A DNA stretch of 64,000 bases from Pseudomonadota bacterium. GTDB taxonomy: Bacteria; Myxococcota_A; Polyangia; JAAYKL01. The position numbers and the translations under genes were made by a program. How positions within the stretch are numbered: position 1 is the first letter of the stretch; the number at the start of each line of letters is the position of its first letter. This document shows, piece by piece, positions 1 to 64,000 of the stretch. The notes beneath the pieces were generated by a model. It was not told the DNA's origin and did not search any database. It saw nothing but the letters and a program-made list of their open reading frames with translations. Where the stretch lies: positions 62,343 through 126,342 of the forward strand of contig JALNZK010000002.1 in NCBI GenBank assembly GCA_023229365.1, read 5' to 3'.

Positions 1-73
1 TGAGCCTTGCTTGGGCACAAATAGAAGCCAGGGCGTCTCTAAATCCAATTGAATAATATATGTGTTGATCCAT

Positions 74-1480
74 CTAATCCTCCGAGGGGCTGTTATCGCC
101 ACACATTTTCACAATCTTCGGATTAAAGGTTGCAACAATTTCAACCAAATCCGATTGAGCCGCCATAACTGTATCAATATCTTTATAGACCCCAGGGCTT
201 TCGTCTGCCGTGGCGTCCAAGACAATGACACCTTGCCGATCCAAGTTACCTTGGACAGCTTTCCAAACATATTTTTCTTTGGCTTTTTTACGAGACATCA
301 ATCGCCCCGCCCCGTGAGAAGCAGAACAAAGACTCGCCGGATTACCTTTGCCCACCACAATATAAGCAGGCGTGCCCATCGAACCAGGAATTACACCCAG
401 CATACGATGGCTTGCAGGGGTTGCTCCCTTACGATGCACCACTACCTCGCCTTGATTCGGATCATGCGTTTCAAGGAAAGCGAAATTGTGATGATTCTCT
501 ACATTAAATAAAACTTTGGCTCCCAAATTCTGAGCCATAGCCTTGTGAATCAATTGATGATTGGCTTGAGCGAATCGACCCATCAATTGCATTGCGAGCC
601 AATATTCCTGCCCATCATTGGATGCCAAATCCAACCATGCCAGATTTTTCAAATCGTCATATTTCTTCGGCAACTTGGATTGAGCAACCCCGTGATACAT
701 TTGGCATACTGCTGCCCCCGGTCCCCGAGAACCTGAATGAGTCATAATTGCCACATACTCACCAGGGAGCAGCCCAGCAATATCTGCAAGCGATGGCGAA
801 TTTTGTATTTGCAGAATGCCGACATCAATAAAATGATTTCCGCTACCCGAAGTTCCTAGCTGCTTCCAGGCTTTGTCTTTTTGCTGTTTGGTGACTCTGG
901 TAATTCCCCAATCCTCATCCATAACCGGATGATTTTTGGGCTGATCGAAGACCGCATTTCCGCCGTCGCCAATACCAAAACGAGTGCTCTTGGCAATCGC
1001 TTCCCTGTACAAATTAAATTTCTTTTCCAAGGAATTGACTGGCATATCTAGGATTGACAAGCTCATACGGCAAGCAATATCGACGCCGACCGCATTCGGA
1101 CATACGGCTCCTTGCAAAGCCAAAACCCCACCAATGGGCAGTCCGTAACCAACATGACAATCTGGCATAACGGCGGCAGTAACCGCCATCGGCAATGAAC
1201 AAGCTTGCTGCATTTGTCCGTCACAACCCTCTTCCAACGACCCCCATACCTTGTAGGGGATAGCAGCAGATCGAACAAACTGTTGCTCTTGAATTAGAAG
1301 ATTGGCTAAATCTCCGAAGTGTTTATCTCCGACATATTCCTGAGGGTTGGTGAAGAAAGTCTTCATGATAGCCTTGATATTGCGATCATCGCCGCCCTCT
1401 CGGGCTACACGAATAGCATCGACCGCAAGACGGGCACAATCCTCAGGACATCCAAGTTTAACAAGCTGTTTGCCGTTCAT
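74..1480 (-). CDS. rtcB: RNA-splicing ligase RtcB (3-prime-phosphate/5-prime-OH RNA ligase)
   Basis: 468 aa with the RtcB hallmarks SGSGNHF (metal-binding His) and CSASHGAGR near the C-terminus. A GGAGG Shine-Dalgarno lies upstream and a consensus promoter sits at about 1510-1538. Confidence 0.8.
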   Translation of the reverse strand: MNGKQLVKLGCPEDCARLAVDAIRVAREGGDDRNIKAIMKTFFTNPQEYVGDKHFGDLANLLIQEQQFVRSAAIPYKVWGSLEEGCDGQMQQACSLPMAVTAAVMPDCHVGYGLPIGGVLALQGAVCPNAVGVDIACRMSLSILDMPVNSLEKKFNLYREAIAKSTRFGIGDGGNAVFDQPKNHPVMDEDWGITRVTKQQKDKAWKQLGTSGSGNHFIDVGILQIQNSPSLADIAGLLPGEYVAIMTHSGSRGPGAAVCQMYHGVAQSKLPKKYDDLKNLAWLDLASNDGQEYWLAMQLMGRFAQANHQLIHKAMAQNLGAKVLFNVENHHNFAFLETHDPNQGEVVVHRKGATPASHRMLGVIPGSMGTPAYIVVGKGNPASLCSASHGAGRLMSRKKAKEKYVWKAVQGNLDRQGVIVLDATADESPGVYKDIDTVMAAQSDLVEIVATFNPKIVKMCGDNSPSED

Positions 1481-1509
1481 GATTTTTCCTCCAATAGACT
1501 ATCTCCCTC

Positions 1510-1538
1510 ATTATACTCCAGAAATGCCAGAATGTAAC
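1510..1538 (-). promoter_or_regulatory. sigma70-like promoter (GTTACA-N17-TATAAT read on minus strand)
   Basis: Plus strand reads ATTATA-N17-TGTAAC, so the minus strand reads GTTACA-17nt-TATAAT. It lies about 30 nt upstream of the rtcB ATG and is one of seven near-identical motifs in the window. Confidence 0.6.
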
Positions 1539-1618
1539 CCCAAAAAACTGCAATTCTTGCTCTAATAAGGCATTAGATTGTTTTAAAATAAGGACAAGTC
1601 GCTGCATATCTATCAATC

Positions 1619-2275
1619 ATGCAATCATACCAAAACTGGAAAGCGAACGAACAGTTATTGACCGAAGCAGTCGAGCTTCTGGAGGCTGTTCGTGTCGATG
1701 TTGGCGAATTAGAAAAAATTCTCTCTAAGGCCCAGAGCGGCGATCCAGAAGCCAGTGAATATTGGCCAATTTTAGTAAAAGCTTTCTTGGAAGGCTATTT
1801 GAATAAATTTGGCTTCCAAGCTGGCTTAAACCATCAGGAAAAAGAAGAGGTTATGCAAAACGTCCTAATGCAACTCACTCGTAACCTTAGAGGCTCATTC
1901 GGCCAAGCAATGGAAATTGGAAGAAACACAAGAGGATGGTTGGTCACCATTTTGAAAAATGCCATTATAGATCGACAAAGAAAAACAATTAAAAACAAAA
2001 AAACCAAAAGTCTTACCTTAGACTTTGATGACGATCATCCAAAATCTTCGGAACCAAATCCACACGACGTTATGAGTCGCATGGAAACTGCGGAAAAAGT
2101 GCGAAGTGCCATCGCTTCTTTGGACCCAATCCATCAAGAGGTTTTGATAATGTTTTATCAAAATGGCATGAAGTATGATGATATAGCTCAGACGCTACAC
2201 ATTCCGCCAGGAACCGTCAAAAGTCGAATAGCTGCGGCTAAAGACAGATTGCGAAAAAAGATAGAAGAAATTTAA
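1619..2275 (+). CDS. RNA polymerase sigma factor, ECF/sigma-70 family
   Basis: The C-terminal sigma-70 region 4 helix-turn-helix is clear (EVLIMFYQNGMKYDDIAQTLHIPPGTVKSRIAAAKDRLRKK). A region-2-like segment lies in the middle. A GC hairpin sits downstream at about 2283-2310. Confidence 0.75.
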   Translation: MQSYQNWKANEQLLTEAVELLEAVRVDVGELEKILSKAQSGDPEASEYWPILVKAFLEGYLNKFGFQAGLNHQEKEEVMQNVLMQLTRNLRGSFGQAMEIGRNTRGWLVTILKNAIIDRQRKTIKNKKTKSLTLDFDDDHPKSSEPNPHDVMSRMETAEKVRSAIASLDPIHQEVLIMFYQNGMKYDDIAQTLHIPPGTVKSRIAAAKDRLRKKIEEI

Positions 2276-3367: not shown

Positions 3368-3395
3368 ATTATACTCCAGATTCTTTGTTTGTAAA
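3368..3395 (-). promoter_or_regulatory. sigma70-like promoter (TTTACA-N16-TATAAT on minus strand)
   Basis: Plus strand reads ATTATACTCCAGATTCTTTGTTTGTAAA, immediately upstream of the 2522..3361 gene. Confidence 0.6.
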
Positions 3396-3398
3396 CCA

Positions 3399-3587
3399 TC
3401 ATTTCCAGAATTTCCAGACGGTTTTTAATTCCTCATCTGGGGATGCTTTCCACTCAGGAAGACTACATCCATGTTCTCGGCTAAAAGACAGATACAAACT
3501 CTCTTCCCTGCCGCAACGATGACACTGCTTTCTAGTAGGGCTCATCATAACCCAACTATGACCAATAAGTTTGCAAAATAATTTCAT
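3399..3587 (-). CDS. small zinc-finger protein (GHSW...CxRCG motif, DUF1660-like)
   Basis: 62 aa carrying LIGHSWV....CHRCGRE, which resembles the GHKW zinc-finger family found in prophages. Confidence 0.3.
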   Translation of the reverse strand: MKLFCKLIGHSWVMMSPTRKQCHRCGREESLYLSFSREHGCSLPEWKASPDEELKTVWKFWK

Positions 3588-3839
3588 TTAAGTAGGCGAA
3601 GCATAATCGTGAAATTTCTTCTGATCGGCTGGATTTATTCGAACCTCTTTGACCATCACTGTGTTTTTCAACAACATCGGCAAAGAACCATTTAATATCT
3701 CCAATGCCGTCAAAGCATCCAATTCTGTACCATACCAATTACCCTGCAATACCGTATCATCGTCATATGTGCTGGCATCTTGGCGGAACAATCCCCATTT
3801 AGTAGTACGATCAGCAACTGTAGGTGTTCGTTGTGTCAT
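3588..3839 (-). CDS. hypothetical protein
   Basis: 83 aa ORF co-directional with its neighbours. Confidence 0.3.
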   Translation of the reverse strand: MTQRTPTVADRTTKWGLFRQDASTYDDDTVLQGNWYGTELDALTALEILNGSLPMLLKNTVMVKEVRINPADQKKFHDYASPT

Positions 3840-4018
3840 ACATTATTTAGTTGTTGTAAAGCCAAAACTATTTTGTCAAAATCTAAAACAACAATATGCT
3901 TGGCTACTTTGCATTCCACACCTTCCTTAGTAATAGCTGTTACTACAGCCGGGTGTCCAGAAACCTCCAAAGTAGTACCAACACCAATCAACGGCGTTAC
4001 TGGCTCTTTGTCTTTCAT
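3836..4018 (-). CDS. hypothetical protein
   Basis: 60 aa ORF whose stop/start overlaps the neighbouring gene by 4 nt. Confidence 0.3.
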   Translation of the reverse strand: MKDKEPVTPLIGVGTTLEVSGHPAVVTAITKEGVECKVAKHIVVLDFDKIVLALQQLNNV

Positions 4019-4068
4019 GTTTTTAATATAGCAACTTTTATAAAAAAATGCAACTATGATAAAAAAGA

Positions 4069-5145
4069 ATGTACGATTATTTAATAGTGGGAAGTGGTTT
4101 GTTTGGAAGCACTTTTGCCAGAAAAGCCAAGGATGCAGGACAATCTGTGCTTGTAATCGAGAAAGAAAAACATGTTGGCGGGCATGTACGCACAGAAATT
4201 ATGGATGGAATCATAGTCTCACTATTCGGACCCCACATTTTTCACACCAAACACAAACATGTGTGGGATTTCGTCAACAAATTTAGTGAATTTAATCATT
4301 ATCGTCATCAAGTCAAAGCTAATTACAATGGAAAAATTATTTCTTTGCCATTTAATATGATGACATTCCACCAATTATGGGGGTGTATCACACCTGCTGA
4401 TGTTGAGGCTGAATTAGCAAAACGTCAAATTCCTATCGACAACCCACAAAATATGGAAGAATGGTGTTTAAGCCAATTGGGAGAGGAAATTTACCATACA
4501 TTAATATATCACTATACCAAAAAACAATGGAATCGTGATCCCAAGACACTTCCTGCCTCTATTATTAAAAGGCTGCCAATTCGTATGTCGTATGATGAAT
4601 CATACTTCGATGATCCCTATCAGGGCATGCCCATACATGGTTATACGCCACTAGTGGAAAAAATGTTAGATGGTATAGCCGTGCAGTTGGGAACTGATTT
4701 TAAAGAAATAAAAAATGATTGGAGGAAAATAGGAAAAAAACTTGTATACAGCGGAAAAATAGACGAATTCTTTGATTTTTGTTATGGAGAATTGGATTAT
4801 AGGACTATAGATTTCCAAACTACCGTTTTAGATGGCAATTTTCAAGGCGTAGCTCAAATGAATCACACTGGTGAATTACCAGTTTATACAAGAACCATAG
4901 AACACAAACATTTTTATTTTATAAATTCACCAAAAACAGTCATCACCTACGAGTTTTCGCAAGCCGCAACAAACACAAGTGCTCCAGATTATCCTGTGAT
5001 TGATGATAAAAATAAAAAAATATCTGGACTCTACAAGGCTATGCAAAGTCCAGATATTCTATTTGGAGGAAGATTGGGCACCCATAGTTATTTAAACATG
5101 GATGACTGCATTGATATGGCTTTAAGACTGTCCAGCTTCATATAA
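4069..5145 (+). CDS. glf: UDP-galactopyranose mutase
   Basis: The N-terminus MYDYLIVGSGLFGSTFARKAKDAGQSVLVIEKEKHVGGHVRTE is the typical Glf FAD-binding Rossmann start. The 358 aa length also fits Glf. Confidence 0.85.
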   Translation: MYDYLIVGSGLFGSTFARKAKDAGQSVLVIEKEKHVGGHVRTEIMDGIIVSLFGPHIFHTKHKHVWDFVNKFSEFNHYRHQVKANYNGKIISLPFNMMTFHQLWGCITPADVEAELAKRQIPIDNPQNMEEWCLSQLGEEIYHTLIYHYTKKQWNRDPKTLPASIIKRLPIRMSYDESYFDDPYQGMPIHGYTPLVEKMLDGIAVQLGTDFKEIKNDWRKIGKKLVYSGKIDEFFDFCYGELDYRTIDFQTTVLDGNFQGVAQMNHTGELPVYTRTIEHKHFYFINSPKTVITYEFSQAATNTSAPDYPVIDDKNKKISGLYKAMQSPDILFGGRLGTHSYLNMDDCIDMALRLSSFI

Positions 5146-5320
5146 ATAAATTATTTTTTCCAATTCCACAATATCACGACATCTCTGACAAGTGATATTA
5201 TATCGCCAACAAGCCGTTGGATTCGTGGCCAAACTATGTGAACACCCACAAGGCTGCCAAGCTAATTCCTGCCTCTTTTTCCAAGCACGCAAATATTGCA
5301 ATTCAGCTATTGATTCCATT

Positions 5321-5572
5321 TTAGCCTTGCGGTCCAGTCTGACCTGTAGCATTGCTTTCGGAAACAGAATTGGCGGGTCCAGAGCCCTCTATGACTATTG
5401 GTTTGCTCATACAACATTTGCCAAATTTCTTGCCCGAACCACACTTGCAGGGCTCAGTATACATTTTAGCATACCTTTCTTTTTGCAATTGCTCTGCCAG
5501 TTGTTTGGGCAAACAACATTTTTTGAACTTTATATTGCTTCCGCACGGACATGGACTGTTTCTAACACTCAT
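5321..5572 (-). CDS. SEC-C metal-binding motif protein
   Basis: Two copies of the SEC-C motif are present: CPCGSNIKFKKCC and CKCGSGKKFGKCC. Confidence 0.5.
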   Translation of the reverse strand: MSVRNSPCPCGSNIKFKKCCLPKQLAEQLQKERYAKMYTEPCKCGSGKKFGKCCMSKPIVIEGSGPANSVSESNATGQTGPQG

Positions 5573-5578
5573 AATTAT

Positions 5579-5893
5579 TTACCTATGAAAGTGATGTGGT
5601 TGATATGATGGACGATAATAATAGGATGGATATGGTTGATAATATCGATAATAATATGGCTGATACACTGGGCGAGACCAGAACATTGGTGGATAATTAT
5701 CAAAGGGCCTTGCATAACTTTGTCGAGCTAAGCCTGGATAATAATCATAAAGCGTCCTGGGCGTTCTCACAGCCCTATTTCTTTCCATATCTCCATATAC
5801 TTGATCGATCCTCATCTGTGGAGTTGGTGTAAAACCCATGCTCGGTGGCTGGGCGGATACAAGCACTACGCTTAATAATAAAGCTGAAATCAT
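5579..5893 (-). CDS. secreted Tyr/Pro-rich small protein
   Basis: An N-terminal hydrophobic signal-like segment (MISALLLSVVLVSAQP) is followed by a low-complexity Y/P/Q-rich tail (YQPYYYRYYQPYPSYYYRPSYQP). Confidence 0.4.
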   Translation of the reverse strand: MISALLLSVVLVSAQPPSMGFTPTPQMRIDQVYGDMERNRAVRTPRTLYDYYPGLARQSYARPFDNYPPMFWSRPVYQPYYYRYYQPYPSYYYRPSYQPHHFHR

Positions 5894-5962
5894 AATAATA
5901 CCTCATAAATGTTTATATTTTAAATATAGCGTAAAATAAATTAAATTGCAATATGAATCAAT

Positions 5963-5999
5963 AAAAAAAGGAGAGGCAATTTTGCCTCTCCTTTTTTTT
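5963..5999. terminator. bidirectional rho-independent terminator
   Basis: A perfect 9-bp stem (GGAGAGGCA / TGCCTCTCC) encloses a 4-nt loop. It is flanked by an A-run on one side and a T-run on the other. It lies just downstream of the minus-strand gene 6015..6344. Confidence 0.7.
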
Positions 6000-6014
6000 A
6001 TTCAGTTTGTTTAG

Positions 6015-6344
6015 TTATTCATCGTCATCGTCTTCCCAATCCTCTTCGTCGTCGTCATCATCGTCATCGTCTTCCCAATCCTCTTCGTCGTCATCATCGT
6101 CATCGTCGTCTTCCCACTCCTCTTCATCGTCATCGTCGTCTAAATCGTCATATTCGTCGTCGTCATCGTCATCGTCGTCATCGAAATCCTCATCCTCATC
6201 ATCGAAATCCTCATCGTCATCTGCCATAGAGCAATTTGCTTGATTGGATTGGACTCGTTCCCACGCACAAGCAGCCACCCGTCGAACTTCTCGCCGGGCT
6301 TCTTCCGACAAGCCACTGTCGAATACTTTCAATCGAATACTCAT
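6015..6344 (-). CDS. hyper-acidic Asp/Glu-repeat protein (possible DNA mimic)
   Basis: 109 aa with a normal N-terminal 40 aa followed by about 65 aa of EEDWEDDDDDDDD repeats. An AAGGAG Shine-Dalgarno lies upstream and the terminator lies downstream. The plus-strand poly-Ser ORF 6007..6243 is its antisense shadow. Confidence 0.55.
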   Translation of the reverse strand: MSIRLKVFDSGLSEEARREVRRVAACAWERVQSNQANCSMADDDEDFDDEDEDFDDDDDDDDDEYDDLDDDDDEEEWEDDDDDDDDEEDWEDDDDDDDDEEDWEDDDDE

Positions 6345-6385
6345 GGATAATCTCCTTTAAAAATAAATCCTTGGTATGTAGCAAC

Positions 6386-6688: not shown

Positions 6689-6714
6689 AACGCACCACTG
6701 TGTCCTTGGTTAAT

Positions 6715-7685: not shown

Positions 7686-7696
7686 TTTATTGTCCT

Positions 7697-8017: not shown

Positions 8018-8028
8018 ATTTCTCCCTG

Positions 8029-8056
8029 GGCTGCTCCTATTATACTTCAGAAACAG
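8029..8056 (-). promoter_or_regulatory. sigma70-like promoter (TTTACA-N16-TATAAT on minus strand)
   Basis: Plus strand reads ATTATACTTCAGAAACAGAGGTTGTAAA. Confidence 0.6.
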
Positions 8057-8267: not shown

Positions 8268-8270
8268 AGG

Positions 8271-56844: not shown

Positions 56845-57987
56845 ATGAAAAACCTATCTTTTTATGTCTGCCAAACTGTCAATGAGAGTGGGGAAAAAGT
56901 CTATTTTAACACCCTCACAAGGCAACAACTGCCCATTTCTGCGACCTTTGACGAGTTGGAGTCCAATTTGTTTTTATCGGGACAAGAAAGAGAGTCCTTG
57001 TTGAAATTGTTGATAATTCATGACCCCCCAAAGTTTCTAAACTTTAACATAGCACCAACATTGGAATGTAACTTACGATGCACACACTGCAACTTCTCGC
57101 ATCTTTTAGAAGCAAAGCAACAAAAACCATTAAATGTTGATAAAATTTGTGATTTTATAATACGATCTAATGTCAAAGATATCTGCATATTTTTTTATGG
57201 TGGAGAAAACCTACTGGAAGAAGAAAAATGCCATGAAGTTATAGACAAGATCAAATCTCATGCAAACATTTTACACATAGGCATGGTCTCTAATCTAACG
57301 ATTGATCTAAATGAAAGAAGATTATCTTTAATTGAAAAATTAAGCCAACTAAGCATTAGTTTAGATGGTGGTAATGATTTGTTGAACGATGCACAAAGAA
57401 TACCACTCACAGGTAATTGGAGTCCATTTGAAAAAACAACCAATAATTTGAAAATATTAATAACCAAAGGACTGAGGCACAAAATCAATTTGAAAGCTTC
57501 TTTTGGCGATGCATCCAATACACCAGAACTACGAAAAGAATATTATCTCTTTGCTCTTCAGTTTGGATTTAAACCTGAACAAATAAACATAGGGCTTATC
57601 GGACCACATTCCGAGTGCAGGAAAACCACCAAATCTTTTGCTGATATATTGTTAAAACCTATATTCACGCCTACATGGTGTTGTAAATACAGACATGAAG
57701 TATTATTAACCGACTATACAGAAAATATATTTAGCGATTATTATACATATACAAAGATAGGAAATTTATCAGATAGTTTGAGTACAATCATAGAGAGAAG
57801 AAATGACCTAATTTTAAAAACCATGCCCTTGCTAAATGACACAAAATGCATGAAGTGTCAAGCAGCAGGGTATTGCTGGGGAAGCTGTGCGATGTTGGAT
57901 TTTGTTGGGGGAAAAAGCAATTTTTGCGATCCAGTAGCTCTTCAACACCAAATACAAAAAATGGCCAATGACAACAAACTATGCTAA
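56845..57987 (+). CDS. radical SAM/SPASM peptide-maturase-like enzyme (second copy)
   Basis: CNLRCTHC (Cx3Cx2C) follows a roughly 70 aa N-terminal extension. The C-terminal SPASM motif is CMKCQAAGYCWGSC. Confidence 0.7.
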   Translation: MKNLSFYVCQTVNESGEKVYFNTLTRQQLPISATFDELESNLFLSGQERESLLKLLIIHDPPKFLNFNIAPTLECNLRCTHCNFSHLLEAKQQKPLNVDKICDFIIRSNVKDICIFFYGGENLLEEEKCHEVIDKIKSHANILHIGMVSNLTIDLNERRLSLIEKLSQLSISLDGGNDLLNDAQRIPLTGNWSPFEKTTNNLKILITKGLRHKINLKASFGDASNTPELRKEYYLFALQFGFKPEQINIGLIGPHSECRKTTKSFADILLKPIFTPTWCCKYRHEVLLTDYTENIFSDYYTYTKIGNLSDSLSTIIERRNDLILKTMPLLNDTKCMKCQAAGYCWGSCAMLDFVGGKSNFCDPVALQHQIQKMANDNKLC

Positions 57988-57996
57988 GGAAAAAAA

Positions 57997-58170
57997 ATGA
58001 TGACAACACTAACAGATGCAGAAAAAATCACTTTTGAGTGTCCAGATGCAGAAAAACTACAACAATTGCTGGACGAGTGCTTGTGTATGGAAATTAATGC
58101 GGGCACCAATTCAAATTCTACTGCTGGCTATGTTTGTGCTTGCCCCGTATATACAATTTCAATAACCTAA
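57997..58170 (+). CDS. Cys-rich small peptide (57 aa), candidate RiPP precursor; absent from the supplied ORF track
   Basis: An AAGGA Shine-Dalgarno precedes ATGATG, 9 nt after the radical SAM stop. The peptide is MMTTLTDAEKITFECPDAEKLQQLLDECLCMEINAGTNSNSTAGYVCACPVYTISIT. Its stop overlaps the ATG of the next gene (TAATG). Confidence 0.4.
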   Translation: MMTTLTDAEKITFECPDAEKLQQLLDECLCMEINAGTNSNSTAGYVCACPVYTISIT

Positions 58171-59258
58171 TGAATCTTTTGCAATGTTATAATCAATATT
58201 ACAAAAACCCAACCCTTGAAAGTGCCAAACTTTTATGGCAAGAAATTCAGTCCTATAACTTTTGCGATTATGTCGATTTTGCTTCAGATGTAAAAGCTGC
58301 CCGTGAGGATTGTAAAAATTTTAGTTCAATTTCTCTAAGGACAAATGGCTCCACAAATATACCTCGGGAATATAAATTTGGTCCGTTTTTCGATTTTTGG
58401 ATCAATAGCATGGAGTCTGCAATCAAGCCAAGCATAGGGAAAACAATATACATTCAATCAATGTTTCCTTGCGGAGATAAAAAAAATGCTATTATGCGTG
58501 TTAAAGATAATTCTCTTATGGATTATGCTGGCATTTTTTATTGGGACCAAAACAATGCCCTATCTTTTTTGATAAATTTCCTTCATAGCGTAAAAGAGCC
58601 AATCACTATCAGCACCGTCTCTAATACACTACTTTTTCTATTAGAACAAAAAAGTTTCTTAGAGTTCTTAAAACAAGACAAAATACTTGCTATCCGTACT
58701 TTAGATTGGGAGCCTTTTTTCAAATCCAGCAAAATACCATCCTCGATCCACCTTAATAACAACATGGTTGATTGGTCAATCACATCTAACTTTTACACCT
58801 GCCCATTTCGCACATTGCATTTTTTTCCAACTTTTTCTGGAAACACAAGCTTAATCAATCTTGCAAATAATCAAATTGAATCTGATGATTTATTTGAAAT
58901 CAATCCGCAAGTCAGAGTGTGTAATTGTGGAAAGTCATATTTAAACTTCAAATTTATACCGCATGTCAACAATGCAATAAAAATAAACAATAAAATAATA
59001 TACGAACCAAGTTTTATAGAAAAATTAGATTCTTGCTATTTAAACCTTCAGTTTGTTCAAACAGGGCAAGAAACTATTGATATATTATATATTGGAAATA
59101 TATCACAACATGACAAAGATGCCATCAACACATTGTTTGAAGGTAGAACTAATTTTGTAAGAAACAAATATCTCGTAATTGGAAGAAAACTAATTTGCTT
59201 TTACCGCAATTCCAATAACATTCCTTACCAATCATATTCTGGCATCACAATTTTATAA
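58170..59258 (+). CDS. hypothetical protein (possible second PaaK-like enzyme, weak)
   Basis: Start reassigned to MNLLQCYN, which is translationally coupled to the peptide ORF. The listed upstream part overlaps the peptide in another frame. Confidence 0.4.
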   Translation: MNLLQCYNQYYKNPTLESAKLLWQEIQSYNFCDYVDFASDVKAAREDCKNFSSISLRTNGSTNIPREYKFGPFFDFWINSMESAIKPSIGKTIYIQSMFPCGDKKNAIMRVKDNSLMDYAGIFYWDQNNALSFLINFLHSVKEPITISTVSNTLLFLLEQKSFLEFLKQDKILAIRTLDWEPFFKSSKIPSSIHLNNNMVDWSITSNFYTCPFRTLHFFPTFSGNTSLINLANNQIESDDLFEINPQVRVCNCGKSYLNFKFIPHVNNAIKINNKIIYEPSFIEKLDSCYLNLQFVQTGQETIDILYIGNISQHDKDAINTLFEGRTNFVRNKYLVIGRKLICFYRNSNNIPYQSYSGITIL

Positions 59259-59892
59259 TCAACTTCTTTAATGATCCTATTTCCGTCTTCGACAAAGGCT
59301 TGGATTTCCTGCCCTCCCAATTGGTTGTTCTCACACCATGCTCAATATGCTGTATCACCAACTTTTGTAATGTTTTTTTAGAATCCCAGTAATCTGCAAA
59401 CACATCATCATACCATCCAGCAGTGTCCCAATCTTCTGGATAGTATTTTAGCCTCGTAGCATGAAACAACTGAAAAAACCCAAGTATACGCATGTTGTCA
59501 CCATCAATATACATTTGTTTGCCAGAAATATTGTCAATTTCATACCTTACCGCCCCATATAAAAACTCTTTATCTAAAGTCAATCCTTCGATTATTTCCC
59601 TAAAGTTATCTGGAAGAATGATATCTGCGTCTAAAGCAAGCATCCAATCTTTTTTATCCAAATAACTTATGGCATCATTTAGTCCCTTACCTTTGTTAAA
59701 TGCTGCACCGCCTTCATAAAATCGACTTGATTCAACACATTCTATTTGATGCTTTTTACACACACTCTTGGTTGCCACATCTTCTGTCGAAGTAATGATT
59801 ACCCATCTGTCAAAATGCTTTTTGTTTGAATATAAACACACATCCAAAAAATCACTATAACCCACGCAAGATGTAAAAACTTCTAAATACAT
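59245..59892 (-). CDS. DxD-motif nucleotide-sugar transferase-like protein (paralog A)
   Basis: LALDADIILP DxD motif. It is about 60% identical in amino-acid sequence to the adjacent gene. Confidence 0.4.
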   Translation of the reverse strand: MYLEVFTSCVGYSDFLDVCLYSNKKHFDRWVIITSTEDVATKSVCKKHQIECVESSRFYEGGAAFNKGKGLNDAISYLDKKDWMLALDADIILPDNFREIIEGLTLDKEFLYGAVRYEIDNISGKQMYIDGDNMRILGFFQLFHATRLKYYPEDWDTAGWYDDVFADYWDSKKTLQKLVIQHIEHGVRTTNWEGRKSKPLSKTEIGSLKKLIIKL

Positions 59893-59894
59893 AA

Positions 59895-60563
59895 TTAGGC
59901 GAATTTAATTACCGATTTGCTGAAAGTGCTAACATCGTTTTTGGATAATATTTTTGATCTTCTGCCACACCAATTTGTTGCAACAATCCCATGTGGCATA
60001 TGTTCGACTACTACATCTTCCAACATTCTATGTCTTCCGTTCCAATAAGACACAAATTCCAAATCATAATTTCCAGCATGGGGATAAGATTCTGGATAGA
60101 CCTTGGCCCTTTGCATAACATCAGAATGTCCATTAAACAATTGAAAATAACCCCAGGGCGAAATTACAGGAGTCACATCAGTCCAACATTGGCATGTATC
60201 CAAACTTTTCCTTGGAACTCCATATAAAAAATCATTATTCAGTTTTTTAGCACCAATCATTTCCCTAAAATCAGCAGGAAGAATAATATCAGCATCTAAG
60301 GCAAGAACCCAATCTTTCTTAAACAAATGATTTATAACATCGTTTAGTGCTTTTCCTTTATTAAATTTATCTCCATTATTATAAAATCTTCGAGACTCCA
60401 CACACTCAACACCACTTTTCTTGCATATGTTTTTTGTGTTTTCATCTTCTGAGCTTGTGACAACAACCCATCTGTCAAAGTGCTTTTTATTTGCACTTAT
60501 GCAAATGTTTAAGAAATCACCATAATTCACACATACTGTAAAAACTTCCAAATAATTAATCAT
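59895..60563 (-). CDS. DxD-motif nucleotide-sugar transferase-like protein (paralog B)
   Basis: It is a tandem duplicate of 59245..59892 (YLEVFT.CV.Y.DFL..C...NKKHFDRWV). Confidence 0.4.
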   Translation of the reverse strand: MINYLEVFTVCVNYGDFLNICISANKKHFDRWVVVTSSEDENTKNICKKSGVECVESRRFYNNGDKFNKGKALNDVINHLFKKDWVLALDADIILPADFREMIGAKKLNNDFLYGVPRKSLDTCQCWTDVTPVISPWGYFQLFNGHSDVMQRAKVYPESYPHAGNYDLEFVSYWNGRHRMLEDVVVEHMPHGIVATNWCGRRSKILSKNDVSTFSKSVIKFA

Positions 60564-61623
60564 ATGCCCTTAGTGTGAAATCAATAAAACTACTGTTAAT
60601 GTTTTCTATTCTATCGCCTTTTATTTTATATCCTATTTGATTGGTTCCCTCATAATGAGTCATATCTTCATTTAATTTTAATTCGTCCCGCCAAATACCT
60701 TTGTCTGTTGGCCATCTAAGACTGAGATTTAAACCATCAATGGACCAAGTTTCTGGACCTTGTGGAGTGTTTAATGTTCCATTTGGATAAGCCACAAATC
60801 GTCTGTGTTTTCGACCATTAACATAGTGTTCCCAAACTCCATCAAAAGAAAACTTGGGCATTCGCTCTTTAACCACGCCTTTTTTAAAAAATGGCTCCAA
60901 AACATCTTGCACAACATCTTCCACAACTATCGATAAATTTGCCTGTTTAAACCAATCTCTATAAGTCACTAGTGGCTGATTTGTTTTCTGAAAATTTCCT
61001 TCGAAACCATATCCCATTTCTTGCAACTCATCTTCTGTAAAGACTAAATGCACATAAGCCTTATTGATATGTTTGTATAAGTGTCCACCATGTCTTGATA
61101 AAAACGGATGACAACGAACAAAAATATCTGTATTTTTATTTGCTACCTCTCTTACTTTGGTTAGGATGCCTACAGGATCAGTTGAATGATCTAGAACATC
61201 ATAAAGCATGATAAAATCAAATGGCGACATTGCTTTAATTTTATCAAAATTAGTGGTCAATAAATACTTACCCTCTTTTTCCCACTCAAAAGAAGAACTC
61301 TCCACAATGTCGTACCCTGCTGCTTGTGATCCCAACTGAGAAGCCACAACAGCAACATGTCCTAAGCCACAACCAAAATCTAAGAACTTTTTGCCATCAA
61401 CCTCCCAATTAGAGAAATTAATGATTGAATCGGCACGTTCAAATAAATCATCTTCAGATTCCATGCATATTAGTTCTTGGGGCACCGCAACAGGCCAACT
61501 TTCACTATGTAACAAATCTTTTAATTGTAGAATTTTAAACTGGGCATCCCAAACTTTACATTTTGTCAAAAATGTTCTGATTTCATCCAAAGATTGCAGC
61601 ACTTGCTCTACTGTTTCTATCAT
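60556..61623 (-). CDS. class I SAM-dependent methyltransferase
   Basis: LDFGCGLGHVAVVASQLG is SAM-binding motif I, and an acidic motif II (YDIVE) follows. Confidence 0.65.
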   Translation of the reverse strand: MIETVEQVLQSLDEIRTFLTKCKVWDAQFKILQLKDLLHSESWPVAVPQELICMESEDDLFERADSIINFSNWEVDGKKFLDFGCGLGHVAVVASQLGSQAAGYDIVESSSFEWEKEGKYLLTTNFDKIKAMSPFDFIMLYDVLDHSTDPVGILTKVREVANKNTDIFVRCHPFLSRHGGHLYKHINKAYVHLVFTEDELQEMGYGFEGNFQKTNQPLVTYRDWFKQANLSIVVEDVVQDVLEPFFKKGVVKERMPKFSFDGVWEHYVNGRKHRRFVAYPNGTLNTPQGPETWSIDGLNLSLRWPTDKGIWRDELKLNEDMTHYEGTNQIGYKIKGDRIENINSSFIDFTLRAYD

Positions 61624-61633
61624 AATTACACCA

Positions 61634-62428
61634 TTAAAAAAGCGGCTTATTATATCTACTAATTCTGTTACTTTTTATCAAATTGTAATAATTCCACCCT
61701 CTGTGAAATTGATTACGATTAGATTCTACAAAATGATATCCATCAAAATTATTCATGTTAAAATTTTTGTAACTACAACACACCTTACTATCTAAGTGTA
61801 TTTCATTGGGATGTAGCTCAAGAATTTTGTCTTTCGATATGGTAATTTGATCCTTATGCAAAAAAACCAATGCTAATAATCCTTGCTCGTCCGCAGAGTT
61901 TAAATTTTCAAGCTCGCCATACTTACGCCACACTCTACATATATCTTTTTGAAAATCATGACCAGGAACCAATCCAATCAAACCAGAGTTGTATTTTTTT
62001 GTCTTTGGTAGATAACAACTATATCGTCCAAAATATCGAGTTGGCTCATCCAAACACAAACACCTTTTGCCGCCAAGAAAATCGTCTATTTCTGGCAAAT
62101 GTTTGCAAATTACAACATCATTATCCATTATAATTTCATATGACTCTATCCTTATTCTAGCTGGGCAAAGTTTCCATAGCGTTCCGAGATTTTCCTGTGA
62201 GAGAGGGCAATCACAAATCTTCTGCTCATATAATGTGAGTAAATGAATTTTGGCAACTTCTCTAAGCCTATCAAGCTGTGCTTCAGTCAAATTATTGTAA
62301 CACACAAACCAATCAAAATTATCTCTGCCCAATGCGTTTATTGTTTGAATGACCGATTCCTCAAAAATATGAAACCCAACCCTTGAGGGCCTTCCAATTG
62401 TCCATCGAAATATCGGCTTTAAAATCAT
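61634..62428 (-). CDS. hypothetical protein, possible glycosyltransferase
   Basis: The N-terminus KPIFRWTIG resembles the DXD sugar-transferase family start. This is a weak call. Confidence 0.3.
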   Translation of the reverse strand: MILKPIFRWTIGRPSRVGFHIFEESVIQTINALGRDNFDWFVCYNNLTEAQLDRLREVAKIHLLTLYEQKICDCPLSQENLGTLWKLCPARIRIESYEIIMDNDVVICKHLPEIDDFLGGKRCLCLDEPTRYFGRYSCYLPKTKKYNSGLIGLVPGHDFQKDICRVWRKYGELENLNSADEQGLLALVFLHKDQITISKDKILELHPNEIHLDSKVCCSYKNFNMNNFDGYHFVESNRNQFHRGWNYYNLIKSNRISRYNKPLF

Positions 62429-62429
62429 A

Positions 62430-63242
62430 TCAGTTAAATTTCACTTCATTTTTATCTACCACATTAGATAAAAAATCATCCAATGTTTTGTGTTTTTCAG
62501 GGTGTAAATGACCGGCATATACCCTGATTTTTGGATCAATGGGCAGTTTCCACTTGCTACAATAATAATAGTAACTCCACACATTGCTTAAGTCATAAAG
62601 TCTTTGGTCGGAAAGATTGTGTTTTTGATGCAACTCCACACAATCAATAGGTAAAAATCTTCCGCCACAAACAATAGCTTTTCTCCAAAAATCATAGTCC
62701 TTATACCCCCATGCCTCAAAATCAGCACTAAATCCCCCATATTCCCAATAAGTTTTTTTTGCAAACAATACGCATCCAGCAAACGGGTTTTTATGCCCCA
62801 CAATATCTACATTTTCTACCCTATGATCCGGCACCAATAAAGACTCATGCTTATATGGATTATCTCTCACCATTCGTATAGAAGAAATATCTACATCTTC
62901 TTTAAAAGAAAACAGATATTTGGGAAAGATAAACAATCCATCTTCTATCAATGATGCATTGTTTAAAAAGTTTGTAGGAAGAATTCTATCGCTGTCCAAG
63001 TACCATATGTGATTGCCACTACTGGCCTCAATGGCTGCATTAAGGGCTTCGCCAAGCCGATAAAACTTTCCTCTTCTCTCTATCTCTAAAACTCTCCACC
63101 CCTCTGGATGTATGTCTGTTTGTCCATCCACACATAAAATTTTTTCACATGTGGCAACATAATCCATATCATTCAGACAATCAATCGTATTAATAAGCTG
63201 TCTGTGACGATCTGTAGAGTATAAAACAACAATACTGAGCAT
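62430..63242 (-). CDS. hypothetical protein, possible glycosyltransferase
   Basis: The N-terminus LSIVVLYSTDR is a GT2-like start. This is a weak call. Confidence 0.3.
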   Translation of the reverse strand: MLSIVVLYSTDRHRQLINTIDCLNDMDYVATCEKILCVDGQTDIHPEGWRVLEIERRGKFYRLGEALNAAIEASSGNHIWYLDSDRILPTNFLNNASLIEDGLFIFPKYLFSFKEDVDISSIRMVRDNPYKHESLLVPDHRVENVDIVGHKNPFAGCVLFAKKTYWEYGGFSADFEAWGYKDYDFWRKAIVCGGRFLPIDCVELHQKHNLSDQRLYDLSNVWSYYYYCSKWKLPIDPKIRVYAGHLHPEKHKTLDDFLSNVVDKNEVKFN

Positions 63243-63245
63243 ACT

Positions 63246-63938
63246 TTATTTAGCAAGAAATTCATCAGGTTTTGTTATTTTGTCGCCAGGACATGGACAA
63301 ACCTCTTCTGTTCCGAATTTTCTTGCATAATTCTTGTTTAATCCGTCACAAATTAAAGACAATCTACAATCCATGCACTTGGGGGAATATGTGTAGCTTT
63401 CTCCCGTAAAAACTTTGGCCAAATGTTCATACGCACCTGAGTCTTCCATGAAATTATACAAACCTCTTGACACCTTTGGTGCAGGTGCGGAAGAGTTTAC
63501 ATCCGACCAAGATTTATAATCCCACTCGTAGTTGTCATATGGTAATTGTCGATAATTATAACATTTGTTTTCATGCCCATATAGAAAACAAAATGGCATA
63601 TACCTTACGGCAGTATGCATGCTGTGTATATCGCAATAATTTAATGCCTCATGTAAACAATCTTTCATTTCAGAAAAACGAGCTATTAAATCAAATGTTT
63701 CATCATGATCTCTGAATAAATTACAGGAAATATAATTGATTGTGCGACACCCCTTTGTGTATACAAATTCTGCTATGTTTTTTAAAGCTTTAAAATTAGT
63801 TTTATTGATAGTGACATTTGTGCGAAATGGTATGCTCAAATGAACCAAATTATCTAACGCCTTCTCAACCCTGGAAAAACTGCCATTCACACCAACGACA
63901 TCATCATAAGCAACCCCCAAATTATGAACAGAACACAA
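63246..63938 (-). CDS. SPASM/twitch-like C-terminal domain protein (possible split radical SAM)
   Basis: It has a TTG start, CMDCRLSLIC (Cx2Cx5C) and CPCPG. An upstream minus-strand gene ends at 63948 and runs off the window edge. Confidence 0.3.
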   Translation of the reverse strand: MCSVHNLGVAYDDVVGVNGSFSRVEKALDNLVHLSIPFRTNVTINKTNFKALKNIAEFVYTKGCRTINYISCNLFRDHDETFDLIARFSEMKDCLHEALNYCDIHSMHTAVRYMPFCFLYGHENKCYNYRQLPYDNYEWDYKSWSDVNSSAPAPKVSRGLYNFMEDSGAYEHLAKVFTGESYTYSPKCMDCRLSLICDGLNKNYARKFGTEEVCPCPGDKITKPDEFLAK

Positions 63939-64000
63939 AAAATCCTCTATTCCAGCATCCTTAAATTGTTTGGCAACATCCAGATCGGCAAGAGCTTGCA

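What the first reader, a model, noticed from the sequence alone, without database searches (positions are those of the whole stretch)
1..64000. Overall architecture consistent with a huge phage
More than 95% of genes lie on one strand. There are many sub-100-aa ORFs, a tRNA island, HNH and homing endonucleases, dut and dCMP deaminase, phoH, ligA and dnaE, translation factors and no cellular housekeeping operons. This is inference, because no capsid or terminase gene lies in this window.
Basis: inference. Interest (0 to 1): 0.5.

Follow-up and report, generated by a model that had tools for sequence, protein, structure and literature searches.

The report
Huge phage fragment mislabelled as bacterium
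This 64-kb stretch is part of a very large (at least 340 kb) bacteriophage genome from a known, widespread group of "huge phages", although public databases file it under a bacterial genome bin; it is a valid but fairly ordinary identification.

Summary
The window is 100% identical to Logan contigs of run SRR18595299 and near-identical to a 100-kb ENA contig. Its proteins also sit on a 340,072-bp contig that NCBI labels "MAG: Proteobacteria bacterium". Confirmed genes: ligA, dnaE, phoH, dut, dCMP deaminase, IF3, one HNH endonuclease and a 15-tRNA island, plus rpS21, peptide deformylase, DnaJ, RtcB and three sigma-like proteins. There is no rRNA and no ribosomal-protein operon. Two details were overstated. 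Strand bias is 88-90%, not above 95%, and only one endonuclease was found.

The decisive evidence is comparative. Twenty-six of 105 ORFs match the 595-kb "uncultured phage" LR756511.1, mostly in the same order, and that phage has terminase, portal and baseplate genes. The conserved block (IF3 to DnaE) recurs on more than 60 IMG/VR viral contigs up to 572 kb. Ten of these also carry the clade's T4-type terminase motif; seven showed a near-full-length terminase.

No terminase, portal or capsid gene lies in the 83 kb I could read, and I could not retrieve the rest of the 340-kb contig. The direct test therefore remains open.

Verdict: a new, deep-branching member of a known kind. Side observations: a DnaE lacking its PHP domain, and cargo islands encoding radical-SAM/SPASM enzymes beside Cys-rich peptides.

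The parts
74..1480 (-). RtcB RNA ligase (468 aa), probably for tRNA repair
   Evidence: Pfam PF01139. NCBI names it 'RtcB family protein', MCK9458268.
1619..2275 (+). Sigma-70 region-4 protein (218 aa), on the minority strand
   Evidence: Pfam Sigma70_r4 and r4_2.
3368..24795 (-). Family of six sigma70-type promoter motifs, GTTTACA-N16/17-TATAAT, at 3368-3396, 8039-8067, 8928-8956, 15464-15492, 16404-16432 and 24767-24795
   Evidence: the repeat finder families D4/D9. Five perfect matches; 10 sites at up to 2 mismatches against 3.1 expected, and 0 of 100 shuffles reach 10. Promoter scan.
4069..5145 (+). UDP-galactopyranose mutase in a low-GC patch (a moron-like gene)
   Evidence: NCBIfam TIGR00031, 321 bits, above the 303.75 cutoff. 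GC is 0.369 at 4-6 kb against about 0.45 on either side.
8269..13703 (-). tRNA island: 15 tRNAs (His x2, Lys x4, Trp x2, Cys, Gln x3, Ile, Met x2) interleaved with small ORFs
   Evidence: ARAGORN. Thirteen pass the Rfam gathering score. Same-anticodon copies are only 54-70% identical.
17135..17839 (-). Sigma-70-family factor (234 aa)
   Evidence: Pfam Sigma70_r2 (weak) and r4.
17839..20037 (-). NAD-dependent DNA ligase LigA (732 aa)
   Evidence: Pfam DNA_ligase_aden, OB, HHH_2 and BRCT.
20659..21027 (-). CI-like/S24-like repressor candidate (122 aa)
   Evidence: phrog_6201 at 3e-5. Pfam Peptidase_S24, weak. Homolog in LR756511.1.
24065..24760 (-). Phage-type phosphoesterase (231 aa)
   Evidence: phrog_547 at 8.5e-38. 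48% identity to LR756511.1.
28840..32313 (-). Largest ORF (1131-1157 aa), function unknown, with Ser-rich repeats near the N-terminus
   Evidence: No hit in Pfam, PHROGs, NCBIfam, INPHARED or LR756511.1. Repeats are families D2/D5.
32235..32879 (-). PhoH-like ATPase (214 aa)
   Evidence: Pfam PF02562.
33674..34540 (-). HNH/endonuclease VII-type nuclease (288 aa)
   Evidence: phrog_1035 at 1.2e-16 plus ten HNH PHROGs.
36295..36792 (-). dUTPase/dCTP-deaminase-fold protein (165 aa)
   Evidence: Pfam dUTPase and DCD.
37731..38732 (-). DnaJ chaperone (333 aa)
   Evidence: Pfam DnaJ and DnaJ_C.
39364..49028 (-). Clade-conserved collinear block: 312-aa protein, IF3 (40304-40825), TPP decarboxylase-like enzyme (40829-42433), 262-aa protein, dCMP deaminase (43216-43734), small ORFs, peptide deformylase (45573-46106), CopG-like protein, rpS21 (46326-46550), the 387-aa/381-aa pair (46541-48846) and a 61-aa zinc-ribbon ORF (48843-49028)
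   Evidence: Pfam. Collinear with LR756511.1 at 324.9-334.9 kb, 23-52% identity. Together with the 208- and 134-aa genes and DnaE further on, 13-17 of these genes are shared per IMG/VR locus.
49083..54133 (.). Region between the 61-aa gene and DnaE. The 208- and 134-aa genes (50399-51471) are shared with 39-62 IMG/VR loci. The rest is specific to this phage: G8-domain protein, a 367-aa plus-strand ORF, an rSAM/SPASM peptide-maturase-like enzyme (52586-53917) and an adjacent 67-aa Cys-rich ORF (53930-54133).
   Evidence: Nothing here matches LR756511.1. Sharing of the 208/134-aa genes. TIGR04463 full-length match, 195 bits, below the 525 cutoff. Peptide C-terminus ...VCGCSGCCSNMVA.
54163..56781 (-). 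DNA polymerase III alpha (DnaE) core, 872 aa, lacking the N-terminal PHP domain
   Evidence: Pfam DNA_pol3_alpha, finger and HHH_6. 42% identity to LR756511.1 DnaE residues 406-1173. No PHP similarity in the window or flanks.
56845..64000 (.). Cargo island (continues to about 66 kb): rSAM (56845-57987, +), 57-aa Cys-containing ORF (57997-58170, +), 362-374-aa ORF (+), tandem paralogs 59245-59892 and 59895-60563, methyltransferase (60556-61623), 264-aa ORF, GT2-like protein (62430-63242), and an rSAM/SPASM enzyme (63246 onward, runs off the window)
   Evidence: Pfam. NCBIfam. In LR756511.1 the AAA ATPase homolog lies directly next to DnaE, so this block is an insertion. It has no homologs in 85 IMG/VR loci, and only the methyltransferase matches LR756511.1, at a distant site. 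GC is 0.34-0.37.

Best explanation
The window is an internal segment of the genome of a huge tailed bacteriophage (Caudoviricetes; contig at least 340 kb). The phage belongs to a widespread, metagenome-only clade that includes the 595-kb phage LR756511.1 and packages DNA with a T4-type large terminase.

Shown:
- Nearly all genes are transcribed in one direction.
- The first 25 kb hold many small ORFs and 15 tRNAs behind six copies of a near-consensus sigma70-type promoter.
- The remainder encodes DNA replication and nucleotide-pool functions (DnaE core, LigA, PhoH, dUTPase, dCMP deaminase) and a conserved block of translation-related genes (IF3, rpS21, peptide deformylase, DnaJ).
- Lineage-specific cargo islands are inserted into this conserved backbone.

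Inferred from established knowledge of phage biology:
- The repeated promoters are read by the host RNA polymerase early in infection.
- The phage's own sigma-like proteins then redirect transcription.
- The tRNAs, RtcB, IF3, S21 and PDF bias or sustain translation in favour of the phage. RtcB would repair tRNAs cut by host defences.
For: (1) Identity and size. The window is 100% identical to Logan contigs of SRR18595299 and matches ENA contig k141_1665208 (100,493 bp) apart from two indels. The same proteins lie on a 340,072-bp contig in NCBI and JGI.

(2) Gene content. It matches the huge-phage repertoire described in PMC7162821 (Pfam).

(3) Homology to a verified phage. Twenty-six of 105 ORFs hit LR756511.1, mostly collinear (window 24-57 kb against LR 293-338 kb). 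LR756511.1 encodes TerL (phrog_2, 1e-41), portal (phrog_213, 1e-72) and a baseplate wedge subunit (2e-31).

(4) Clade in IMG/VR.
- The 381-aa marker has 60 relatives and DnaE has 17, all on IMG/VR viral contigs up to 572 kb.
- 13-17 window genes are shared per locus at 35-46% mean identity.
- Ten such contigs (44-511 kb, including 340,934, 343,421 and 340,341 bp) also carry the clade-specific TerL Walker-A motif.
- A near-full-length TerL was confirmed on seven of them; two gave only the ATPase part and one stretch was cut short.

(5) Plasmids. The marker has no match in 72,556 plasmids, and its only match among GenBank phages is LR756511.1.

(6) Same-contig phage families. A 219-aa ORF about 5 kb upstream matches phrog_1383 'virion structural protein' (8.5e-22), with homologs only in large phages. 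A downstream SPFH protein matches phrog_11908 (5e-57).

(7) No cellular signature. There is no rRNA or ribosomal operon. IF3, S21 and PDF are not in their bacterial operon contexts (gene order; the operon contexts are from general knowledge).
Against: - No terminase, portal, capsid or tail gene was found in the 83 kb I could read (window plus about 10 kb on each side).
- Searches seeded with the LR756511.1 terminase did not return the 340,072-bp contig. Calibration shows the expected identity (about 50-55%) falls at the 52% cut-off of the list, so this absence is uninformative.
- The depositor's label is 'Proteobacteria bacterium'.
- The contig was not found in IMG/VR by a close-relative scan.
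- Most ORFs have no PHROG family.
- The phrog_1383 family is annotated 'LemA' in one record, so it is a soft hallmark.
Confidence: 0.93

Rival explanations
1. It is a fragment of a proteobacterial chromosome, as the NCBI record label implies. On this reading the cellular-type genes (DnaE, LigA, IF3, S21, PDF, DnaJ) are the host's own.
For: NCBI names the proteins 'MAG... [Proteobacteria bacterium]'. Several genes are of bacterial type.
Against: - There is no rRNA, no ribosomal-protein operon and no bacterial core metabolism across about 83 kb.
- The DnaE lacks its PHP domain.
- The nearest relatives of the gene block are all viral contigs or LR756511.1.
- About a third of the genes are under 100 aa, and most have no family.
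- Huge-phage contigs of this clade are demonstrably mis-binned into bacterial MAGs, for example a 546-kb contig in a 'Bacteriovoracaceae' MAG.
Confidence: 0.02
2. It is a megaplasmid or another non-viral extrachromosomal element that shares replication and translation genes with huge phages.
For: No virion gene was seen directly in the readable 83 kb. PMC7162821 mentions plasmid-like sequences above 200 kb in the same kinds of samples.
Against: - The clade marker has no hit in PLSDB.
- No rep, par or conjugation genes appear among the Pfam calls.
- Relatives sharing 13-17 genes of the block carry TerL on the same contig.
- A phrog_1383 'virion structural protein' homolog lies 5 kb upstream.
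Confidence: 0.03
3. It is a giant virus of eukaryotes (Nucleocytoviricota), which can also carry tRNA clusters and translation factors.
For: There is a tRNA island and there are translation-related genes.
Against: All informative genes are of bacterial or phage type: C-family DnaE, sigma-70 factors, IF3, rpS21, PDF and NAD-dependent LigA. The promoters are sigma70-like. Relatives have a T4-type terminase and portal. Coding is dense and uninterrupted under the bacterial code (93%).
Confidence: 0.005

Closest known systems
LR756511.1, 'uncultured phage', 595,163 bp (GenBank, unannotated)
   Same: Twenty-six of 105 window ORFs have homologs, mostly in the same order and orientation (window 24-57 kb against LR 293-338 kb). 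These include the IF3 - TPP enzyme - dCMP deaminase - PDF - 387/381-aa pair - DnaE block at 23-55% identity. GC content is similar (0.42 against 0.34-0.47). The AAA ATPase neighbour of DnaE is also conserved.
   Different: About 75% of window ORFs have no counterpart. LR756511.1 has a fused 1179-aa DnaE with a PHP domain, while the window has an 872-aa core only. The window carries unique material at 49-54 kb and an island at 56.8-66 kb. LR756511.1 is 595 kb, against a contig of 340 kb here.
IMG/VR huge viral contigs sharing the block (e.g. IMGVR_UViG_3300015615_000629, 572 kb; 3300014202_001521, 340,934 bp; 3300047160_036266, 343,421 bp)
   Same: They share 13-17 genes of the window's 24.9-56.8 kb region (mainly the 39-57 kb backbone) within a 21-kb locus. 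They have the same split-DnaE core architecture. Ten contigs carry the clade TerL motif, and seven of these showed a near-full-length TerL.
   Different: The best marker identity is only 59-60% and mean identity is 35-46%. Marker identities across the clade form a star-like radiation, and the window phage falls in no tight subclade. Its cargo islands are not shared.
Huge phages of Al-Shayeb et al. 2020 (Nature 578:425; PMC7162821)
   Same: Genome above 200 kb, tRNA arrays, IF3, rpS21, PDF, sigma70 and tRNA-ligation genes.
   Different: I could not assign the window phage to one of that paper's named clades. No CRISPR-Cas system, tRNA synthetase or alternative genetic code is evident in this window.
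T4-like phages (Straboviridae): terminase gp17 and early-promoter style
   Same: The clade's TerL is of the T4 gp17 type (phmmer 1.6e-27 against a gp17 sequence I recalled from memory; phrog_2). The repeated GTTTACA-N16-TATAAT motif resembles the T4 early-promoter consensus as I recall it; this was not tested.
   Different: T4 uses a B-family polymerase, not DnaE. Its genome is about half the size or less. No T4 structural gene was seen in the window itself.

Membership tests
Huge/jumbo tailed phage (Caudoviricetes, genome above 200 kb) | Genome or contig longer than 200 kb | tested here: met
   The longest contig carrying 8 of the 10 proteins checked, including all seven window proteins, is 340,072 bp. 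This is database metadata; I could not read the sequence of that contig.
Huge/jumbo tailed phage (Caudoviricetes, genome above 200 kb) | Virion and packaging hallmark genes (large terminase, portal, major capsid protein) on the same genome | tested here: inconclusive
   None found in the window plus about 10 kb on each side. A soft hit to phrog_1383 'virion structural protein' lies 5 kb upstream. The rest of the contig could not be reached. TerL-seeded searches did not return the contig, but the expected identity falls at the list cut-off.
Huge/jumbo tailed phage (Caudoviricetes, genome above 200 kb) | Homology and synteny with a genome that demonstrably encodes a virion | tested here: met
   Collinear block with LR756511.1, which has TerL, portal and baseplate genes. 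Ten IMG/VR contigs carry both the block markers and the TerL motif, seven with a near-full-length TerL.
Huge/jumbo tailed phage (Caudoviricetes, genome above 200 kb) | Absence of cellular signature (rRNA operons, ribosomal-protein operons, core metabolism) | tested here: met
   Rfam finds only tRNAs. The Pfam calls across about 83 kb show only an isolated S21.
Bacterial chromosome (the record's label: Proteobacteria MAG) | Housekeeping genes in conserved operon contexts, rRNA and ribosomal proteins | tested here: not met
   infC, rpsU and def homologs are flanked by clade-specific unknown genes rather than their usual operon partners (gene order; the usual contexts are from general knowledge). 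No rRNA.
Plasmid / megaplasmid | Replication-initiator, partition or conjugation genes; relatives among known plasmids | tested here: not met
   No such Pfam families. The clade marker has no tblastn hit in 72,556 PLSDB plasmids.
Radical-SAM/SPASM RiPP cluster (side observation) | Maturase scoring above a curated family cutoff | tested here: not met
   The best match, TIGR04463, scores 195 bits against a cutoff of 525. The match is full-length but divergent.
Radical-SAM/SPASM RiPP cluster (side observation) | Adjacent small precursor ORF with a Cys-rich core | tested here: met
   A 67-aa ORF at 53930-54133 ends ...SSVCGCSGCCSNMVA. A 57-aa ORF at 57997-58170 ends ...GYVCACPVYTISIT. Expression and modification were not tested.

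The most novel reading that the evidence does not exclude
This deep-branching huge phage runs its replicative polymerase without a nearby PHP domain. DnaE is split at the PHP-palm boundary across most relatives examined, and here the PHP gene is absent from at least 16 kb upstream. On this reading the fission gap is a cargo hot spot, which in this phage holds a unique ~9.5-kb island with radical-SAM/SPASM maturase-like enzymes and Cys-rich precursor-like peptides. That would mean a huge phage makes its own ribosomally synthesised, modified peptide(s).
Probability: 0.3. Interest if true: 0.55.

Novelty: new member of a known kind. Interest (0 to 1): 0.3.

Why it matters
Scientifically this adds one more lineage to an already large, known group of huge phages, and it is a divergent one (at most 60% identity in the best-conserved marker). 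Its practical value is for curation. A 340-kb phage contig sits in GenBank inside a 'Proteobacteria bacterium' MAG, and the same clade's terminase turns up on contigs of up to 546 kb in GTDB genomes labelled as bacteria. Such mis-binning inflates bacterial gene inventories with phage translation and replication genes. It can also hint at hosts. The side observations (a split, PHP-less DnaE and radical-SAM peptide islands) are leads for studying how huge phages replicate and what cargo they carry.

Tried and rejected
1. Megablast of 20 kb against GenBank phages found no match.
3. A concatenated TerL+portal+flank query to the large protein database was a mistake. Candidate selection favoured long intein-bearing terminases, and even identical flank proteins were not returned.
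4. LR756511.1 TerL alone gave 1998 hits. The top 120, down to 52% identity, contained no 340,072-bp contig.
5. Two TerL hits chosen by source signature (P0097, P0133) came from unrelated samples.
6. The DNA search on the collections returned only a 3.5-kb stretch in my test, not the whole contig, so it could not fetch the 340-kb record.
7. TerL-alignment scans of JGI metagenome contigs and GTDB genomes did not return the contig.
8. The closest relative's 'TerL' (L480) is only a 338-aa ATPase-domain ORF and was unusable as a probe.
9. The marker identity matrix shows a star-like radiation, so no terminase probe would rank the window phage's ortholog inside a 120-row list. I therefore left the third large protein search unused.
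10. Looking up window-specific protein variants to expose the 340-kb record returned nothing, or only a Logan fragment.
11. Literature searches by accession or sample ID found nothing. Keyword searches on phage radical-SAM RiPPs and on split DnaE in jumbo phages returned nothing directly relevant among the listed results.
12. I considered and rejected a group I intron or intein as the cause of the DnaE split. The gap is 3.6 to at least 9.4 kb and holds genes on both strands, Rfam finds no intron, and the two ORFs overlap by about 95 homologous residues.

Full report
**1. What the window is and where it occurs**

A mechanical survey shows long ORFs mostly on the minus strand. There are 15 tRNA genes at 8269-13703, all on the minus strand. 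The GC skew falls steadily across the whole window, and GC declines from about 0.45 to about 0.35. Rfam finds no family other than tRNA.

Exact-protein look-ups place the window on ENA metagenome contig ERZ27247350:k141_1665208 (100,493 bp) and on Logan contigs of run SRR18595299. The Logan contigs are 100% identical to the window. The ENA contig differs by a 39-nt repeat-unit indel inside the acidic-repeat ORF 6015-6344 and by a 4-nt indel near 20416.

Cluster look-ups show the same proteins in NCBI as MCK9458268 (RtcB) to MCK9458354, named "MAG... [Proteobacteria bacterium]" with locus tags M0R80_.... The longest contig carrying them is 340,072 bp.

**2. Checking the observation**

The precomputed Pfam calls on those contigs, plus my own family searches, confirm the following genes:

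| Gene | Window coordinates | Basis |
|---|---|---|
| RtcB | 74-1480 | |
| Sigma-70 region-4 protein | 1619-2275 (+) | |
| Sigma factor | 17135-17839 | |
| LigA | 17839-20037 | |
| PhoH | 32235-32879 | |
| GT2 | 35092-35829 | |
| dUTPase | 36295-36792 | |
| DnaJ | 37731-38732 | |
| IF3 | 40304-40825 | |
| TPP enzyme | 40829-42433 | |
| dCMP deaminase | 43216-43734 | |
| Peptide deformylase | 45573-46106 | |
| rpS21 | 46326-46550 | |
| DnaE | 54163-56781 | |

- A further sigma-like region-4 protein gives three sigma-like proteins in all.
- There are four radical-SAM proteins.
- There is one HNH/endonuclease VII protein at 33674-34540 (phrog_1035, 1.2e-16).
- The ORFs interleaved with the tRNAs gave no endonuclease signal, so "homing endonucleases" in the plural is not supported.

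Strand bias is real but smaller than stated. Counting the database gene calls, 84 of 95 protein genes (88%) are on the minus strand, or 99 of 110 (90%) with tRNAs. My own codon-scored gene call gives 91 of 105 (87%) with 93% coding. About a third of genes are under 100 aa: 31 of 95 in the database calls and 41 of 105 in mine.

No terminase-, portal- or baseplate-like sequence exists in the window or in about 10 kb on either side (tblastn; PHROGs).

**3. Relatives**

There is no near-identical phage in GenBank. By tblastn, the DnaE's best hit is LR756511.1, an unannotated 595,163-bp "uncultured phage", at 42% identity over 91% of the protein. Every other phage hit is about 31% or lower and partial.

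I downloaded LR756511.1 in full.
- Twenty-six of 105 window ORFs have homologs in it, mostly collinear: window 24-57 kb corresponds to LR 293-338 kb on the same strand.
- I located its large terminase with a T4 gp17 sequence recalled from memory (phmmer 1.6e-27) and verified the candidates against PHROGs.
- The results were TerL (phrog_2, 9.6e-42), portal (phrog_213, 1.1e-72, carrying an intein-like insertion), a baseplate wedge subunit (2e-31) and tail proteins.

LR756511.1 is therefore a genuine tailed phage, and the window shares its backbone.

**4. The clade**

Alignments of the window protein with its LR ortholog were used to scan IMG/VR.
- The conserved 381-aa protein (47701-48846) has 60 relatives at 37-60% identity on viral contigs up to 572,167 bp. 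Three are 340,341, 340,934 and 343,421 bp.
- DnaE has 17 relatives at 40-52% identity.
- Local tblastn shows 13-17 window genes shared per 21-kb IMG/VR locus at 35-46% mean identity. The shared genes lie mainly in the IF3-to-DnaE stretch.
- A clade-specific segment of TerL (Walker-A variant KFRQGGLTT) finds 202 IMG/VR contigs.
- Ten contigs carry both this TerL motif and a window-block marker: 340,934; 343,421; 340,341; 261,680; 210,307; 458,813; 511,233; 381,443; 144,363; and 44,367 bp.
- A near-full-length TerL was confirmed on seven of these. The 44,367- and 340,341-bp contigs gave only the ATPase part, and the stretch from the 144,363-bp contig was cut short.
- The marker has no match among 72,556 plasmids, and its only match among GenBank phages is LR756511.1.
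- Pairwise marker identities are 44-73%, mostly in the 45-60% range, which is a star-like radiation. The window phage's best is 59-60%, so it is a deep-branching member with no close relative.

**5. The direct test that could not be completed**

- Searching the large protein database with the LR756511.1 TerL gave 1998 hits. The 120 listed reach down to 52% identity, and none lies on a 340,072-bp contig.
- Scans of JGI metagenome contigs and GTDB genomes with a TerL alignment did not return it either.
- In five contigs that carry both genes, TerL identity to LR tracks marker identity to LR (78/71, 66/68, 54/54, 49/47, 54/46%).
- The window phage's marker is 50% identical to LR, so its TerL would be about 50-55% identical, exactly at the list cut-off. 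Its absence is therefore uninformative.
- In relatives, TerL lies tens to hundreds of kb from the marker (coordinates).
- Because no better probe exists, I left the third large protein search unused.

Two softer pieces of same-contig evidence exist. A 219-aa ORF 4.5-5.2 kb upstream of the window (L006:10582-11241) matches phrog_1383 "virion structural protein" over its full length (8.5e-22). Its only homologs are in LR756511.1, the 235-kb Tenacibaculum phage pT24, Sinorhizobium phiM12-like phages and two other large phages, one of which annotates it as "LemA". An SPFH protein downstream matches the phage family phrog_11908 (4.9e-57).

**6. How it most likely works**

Shown:
- One dominant transcription direction.
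- Six copies of a near-consensus sigma70-type promoter, GTTTACA-N16/17-TATAAT, on the gene strand at 3.4, 8.0, 8.9, 15.5, 16.4 and 24.8 kb. Ten sites occur at up to 2 mismatches against 3.1 expected, and 0 of 100 shuffles reach 10.
- These promoters lie in the region rich in small ORFs and tRNAs.
- A replication and nucleotide set (DnaE core, LigA, PhoH, dUTPase, dCMP deaminase, and an AAA ATPase just beyond the window).
- A conserved translation-related block (IF3, rpS21, PDF, DnaJ).

Inferred:
- The repeated promoters are read by host RNA polymerase early in infection. The motif resembles the T4 early-promoter consensus as I recall it; this was not tested.
- The three sigma-like proteins then redirect transcription.
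- The tRNAs, RtcB, IF3, S21 and PDF sustain or bias translation toward phage messages, as proposed for huge phages in PMC7162821.
- A CI/S24-like protein at 20659-21027 leaves the lifestyle open.

**7. Rivals**

- Bacterial chromosome, as in the record's label. There is no rRNA, ribosomal operon or core metabolism. IF3, S21 and PDF are out of their usual operon contexts. All nearest relatives are viral. TerL genes of this clade also occur on contigs of up to 546 kb in GTDB genomes labelled Bacteriovoracaceae, Acidimicrobiaceae, Neisseriaceae and others, which shows that mis-binning is common.
- Megaplasmid or other element. No plasmid genes were called, and the marker has no PLSDB hit.
- Eukaryotic giant virus. 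All informative genes are of bacterial or phage type.

**8. Things seen along the way**

(a) DnaE is split in relatives. In five relatives where both parts were read, a 420-494-aa PHP ORF (LR residues about 4-433, checked in three) lies 3.6-8.7 kb upstream of a roughly 910-aa core ORF (one is 1077 aa). In three more the PHP match sits at the locus edge, at least 9.4 kb upstream. The core ORF restarts at LR residue about 340 with a degenerate copy of the overlapping segment. LR756511.1 has the fused form. The window has the core form, and no PHP sequence is detectable from -10 to +73 kb.

(b) Relative to the LR backbone, the window carries extra material at 49.1-54.1 kb and 56.8-about 66 kb. 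The AAA ATPase that abuts DnaE in LR lies beyond the second block. In the first block the 208- and 134-aa genes are shared with IMG/VR relatives; the rest is not. The second block has no homolog in the 85 IMG/VR loci and has lower GC.

(c) These blocks hold three radical-SAM/SPASM enzymes. One matches RiPP maturase families for Cys-rich peptides over its full length but scores below the curated cutoffs. It sits next to a 67-aa ORF ending ...VCGCSGCCSNMVA. A second is followed by a 57-aa ORF ending ...YVCACPVYTISIT. Only distant homologs (20-29% identity) exist in GenBank phage records, and no close relative turned up in an exact-peptide scan of IMG/VR.

(d) The largest ORF (1131-1157 aa) has no detectable homolog in any library tried.

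**9. Verdict**

This is a new, divergent member of a known kind of entity. Interest is modest. Its value lies mainly in correcting a mislabelled public record and in the side leads.

Noticed in passing
whole window; NCBI proteins MCK9458268-MCK9458368: The public record labels these proteins 'MAG: ... [Proteobacteria bacterium]' on a 340,072-bp contig, so a huge-phage contig appears to be binned into a bacterial MAG. TerL genes of the same clade also occur in GTDB genomes labelled as bacteria, for example CALFYV010000090.1 (546,147 bp, 'Bacteriovoracaceae').
   Followed up: partly
window 54163-56781; relatives L249, L250, L251, L253, L258: DnaE fission. Relatives encode a separate 420-494-aa PHP ORF 3.6 to at least 9.4 kb upstream of a roughly 910-aa core ORF, with about 95 overlapping homologous residues. 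LR756511.1 has them fused (1179 aa). The window has the core only, and no PHP is detectable from -10 to +73 kb.
   Followed up: partly
window 52586-54133 and 56845-58170: Two radical-SAM/SPASM peptide-maturase-like enzymes each sit next to a small ORF with a Cys-rich C-terminus (...VCGCSGCCSNMVA; ...YVCACPVYTISIT). These are candidate RiPP pairs. The maturase scores are below the curated NCBIfam cutoffs.
   Followed up: partly
window 49083-54133 and 56845-64000 (to about 66 kb in L007): Extra material relative to the LR756511.1 backbone. The second block, and most of the first, are not shared with the IMG/VR relatives and have lower GC (0.34-0.39). The AAA ATPase that abuts DnaE in LR756511.1 lies beyond the second block.
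   Followed up: yes
window 3368-3396, 8039-8067, 8928-8956, 15464-15492, 16404-16432, 24767-24795 (minus strand): A conserved promoter-like family, GTTTACA-N16/17-TATAAT followed by AGGAGCA, all oriented with the genes. The 3368-3396 copy ends at the start codon of ORF 2522-3361. Possibly early promoters.
   Followed up: partly
window 28840-32313 (minus strand): The largest ORF (1131-1157 aa) has Ser-rich hexanucleotide repeats near its 5' end and no hit in Pfam, PHROGs, NCBIfam, GenBank phages or LR756511.1.
   Followed up: partly
window 4069-5145 (plus strand): A bona fide UDP-galactopyranose mutase (above the NCBIfam cutoff) lies on the minority strand in a low-GC patch. It looks like a horizontally acquired cell-surface sugar gene.
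   Followed up: no
window 6015-6344 and about 20416: Assemblies of the same phage differ by a 39-nt repeat-unit indel in an acidic (D/E-rich) repeat ORF and by a 4-nt frameshifting indel in ORF 20315-20662. This is either population variation or assembly error.
   Followed up: partly
window 8269-13703: tRNAs with the same anticodon are only 54-70% identical, so they are not recent duplicates. tRNA-Gln at 11439-11524 (86 nt) and tRNA-Cys at 10223-10302 (80 nt) are unusually long. tRNA-Cys and tRNA-Ile do not reach the Rfam gathering score.
   Followed up: partly
window 48843-49028 (minus strand): A 61-aa ORF with two CxxC pairs (zinc-ribbon-like) is not called in the public gene set but is conserved in LR756511.1 and 57 IMG/VR loci, so it is probably a real gene.
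   Followed up: partly
window 59245-59892 and 59895-60563: Adjacent 215-aa and 222-aa genes are tandem paralogs (DNA repeats of 152 and 118 nt at 72-74% identity, 665 nt apart).
   Followed up: no
L006:10582-11241 (4.5-5.2 kb upstream of window position 1): A 219-aa ORF matches phrog_1383 'virion structural protein' (8.5e-22). Its homologs occur only in large phages, and one record calls it LemA.
   Followed up: yes
LR756511.1 531014-533587 (L020:31014-33587): The portal protein of the related 595-kb phage carries an intein-like insertion (CVAGDTLI...VMHN|C, about 230 aa).
   Followed up: no
L480:10687-11703 (IMGVR_UViG_3300029267_003851): The relative with the closest marker encodes a 338-aa ORF covering only the TerL ATPase domain (41% identity to LR TerL residues 62-314). 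It is either a truncated or a paralogous terminase.
   Followed up: partly
window 47701-48846 (minus strand): The clade-marker 381-aa protein has conserved Cys pairs. To my eye its C-terminal half looks like a GT-B/heptosyltransferase-type fold, but there is no significant Pfam hit. It is always adjacent to the 387-aa protein near DnaE.
   Followed up: no
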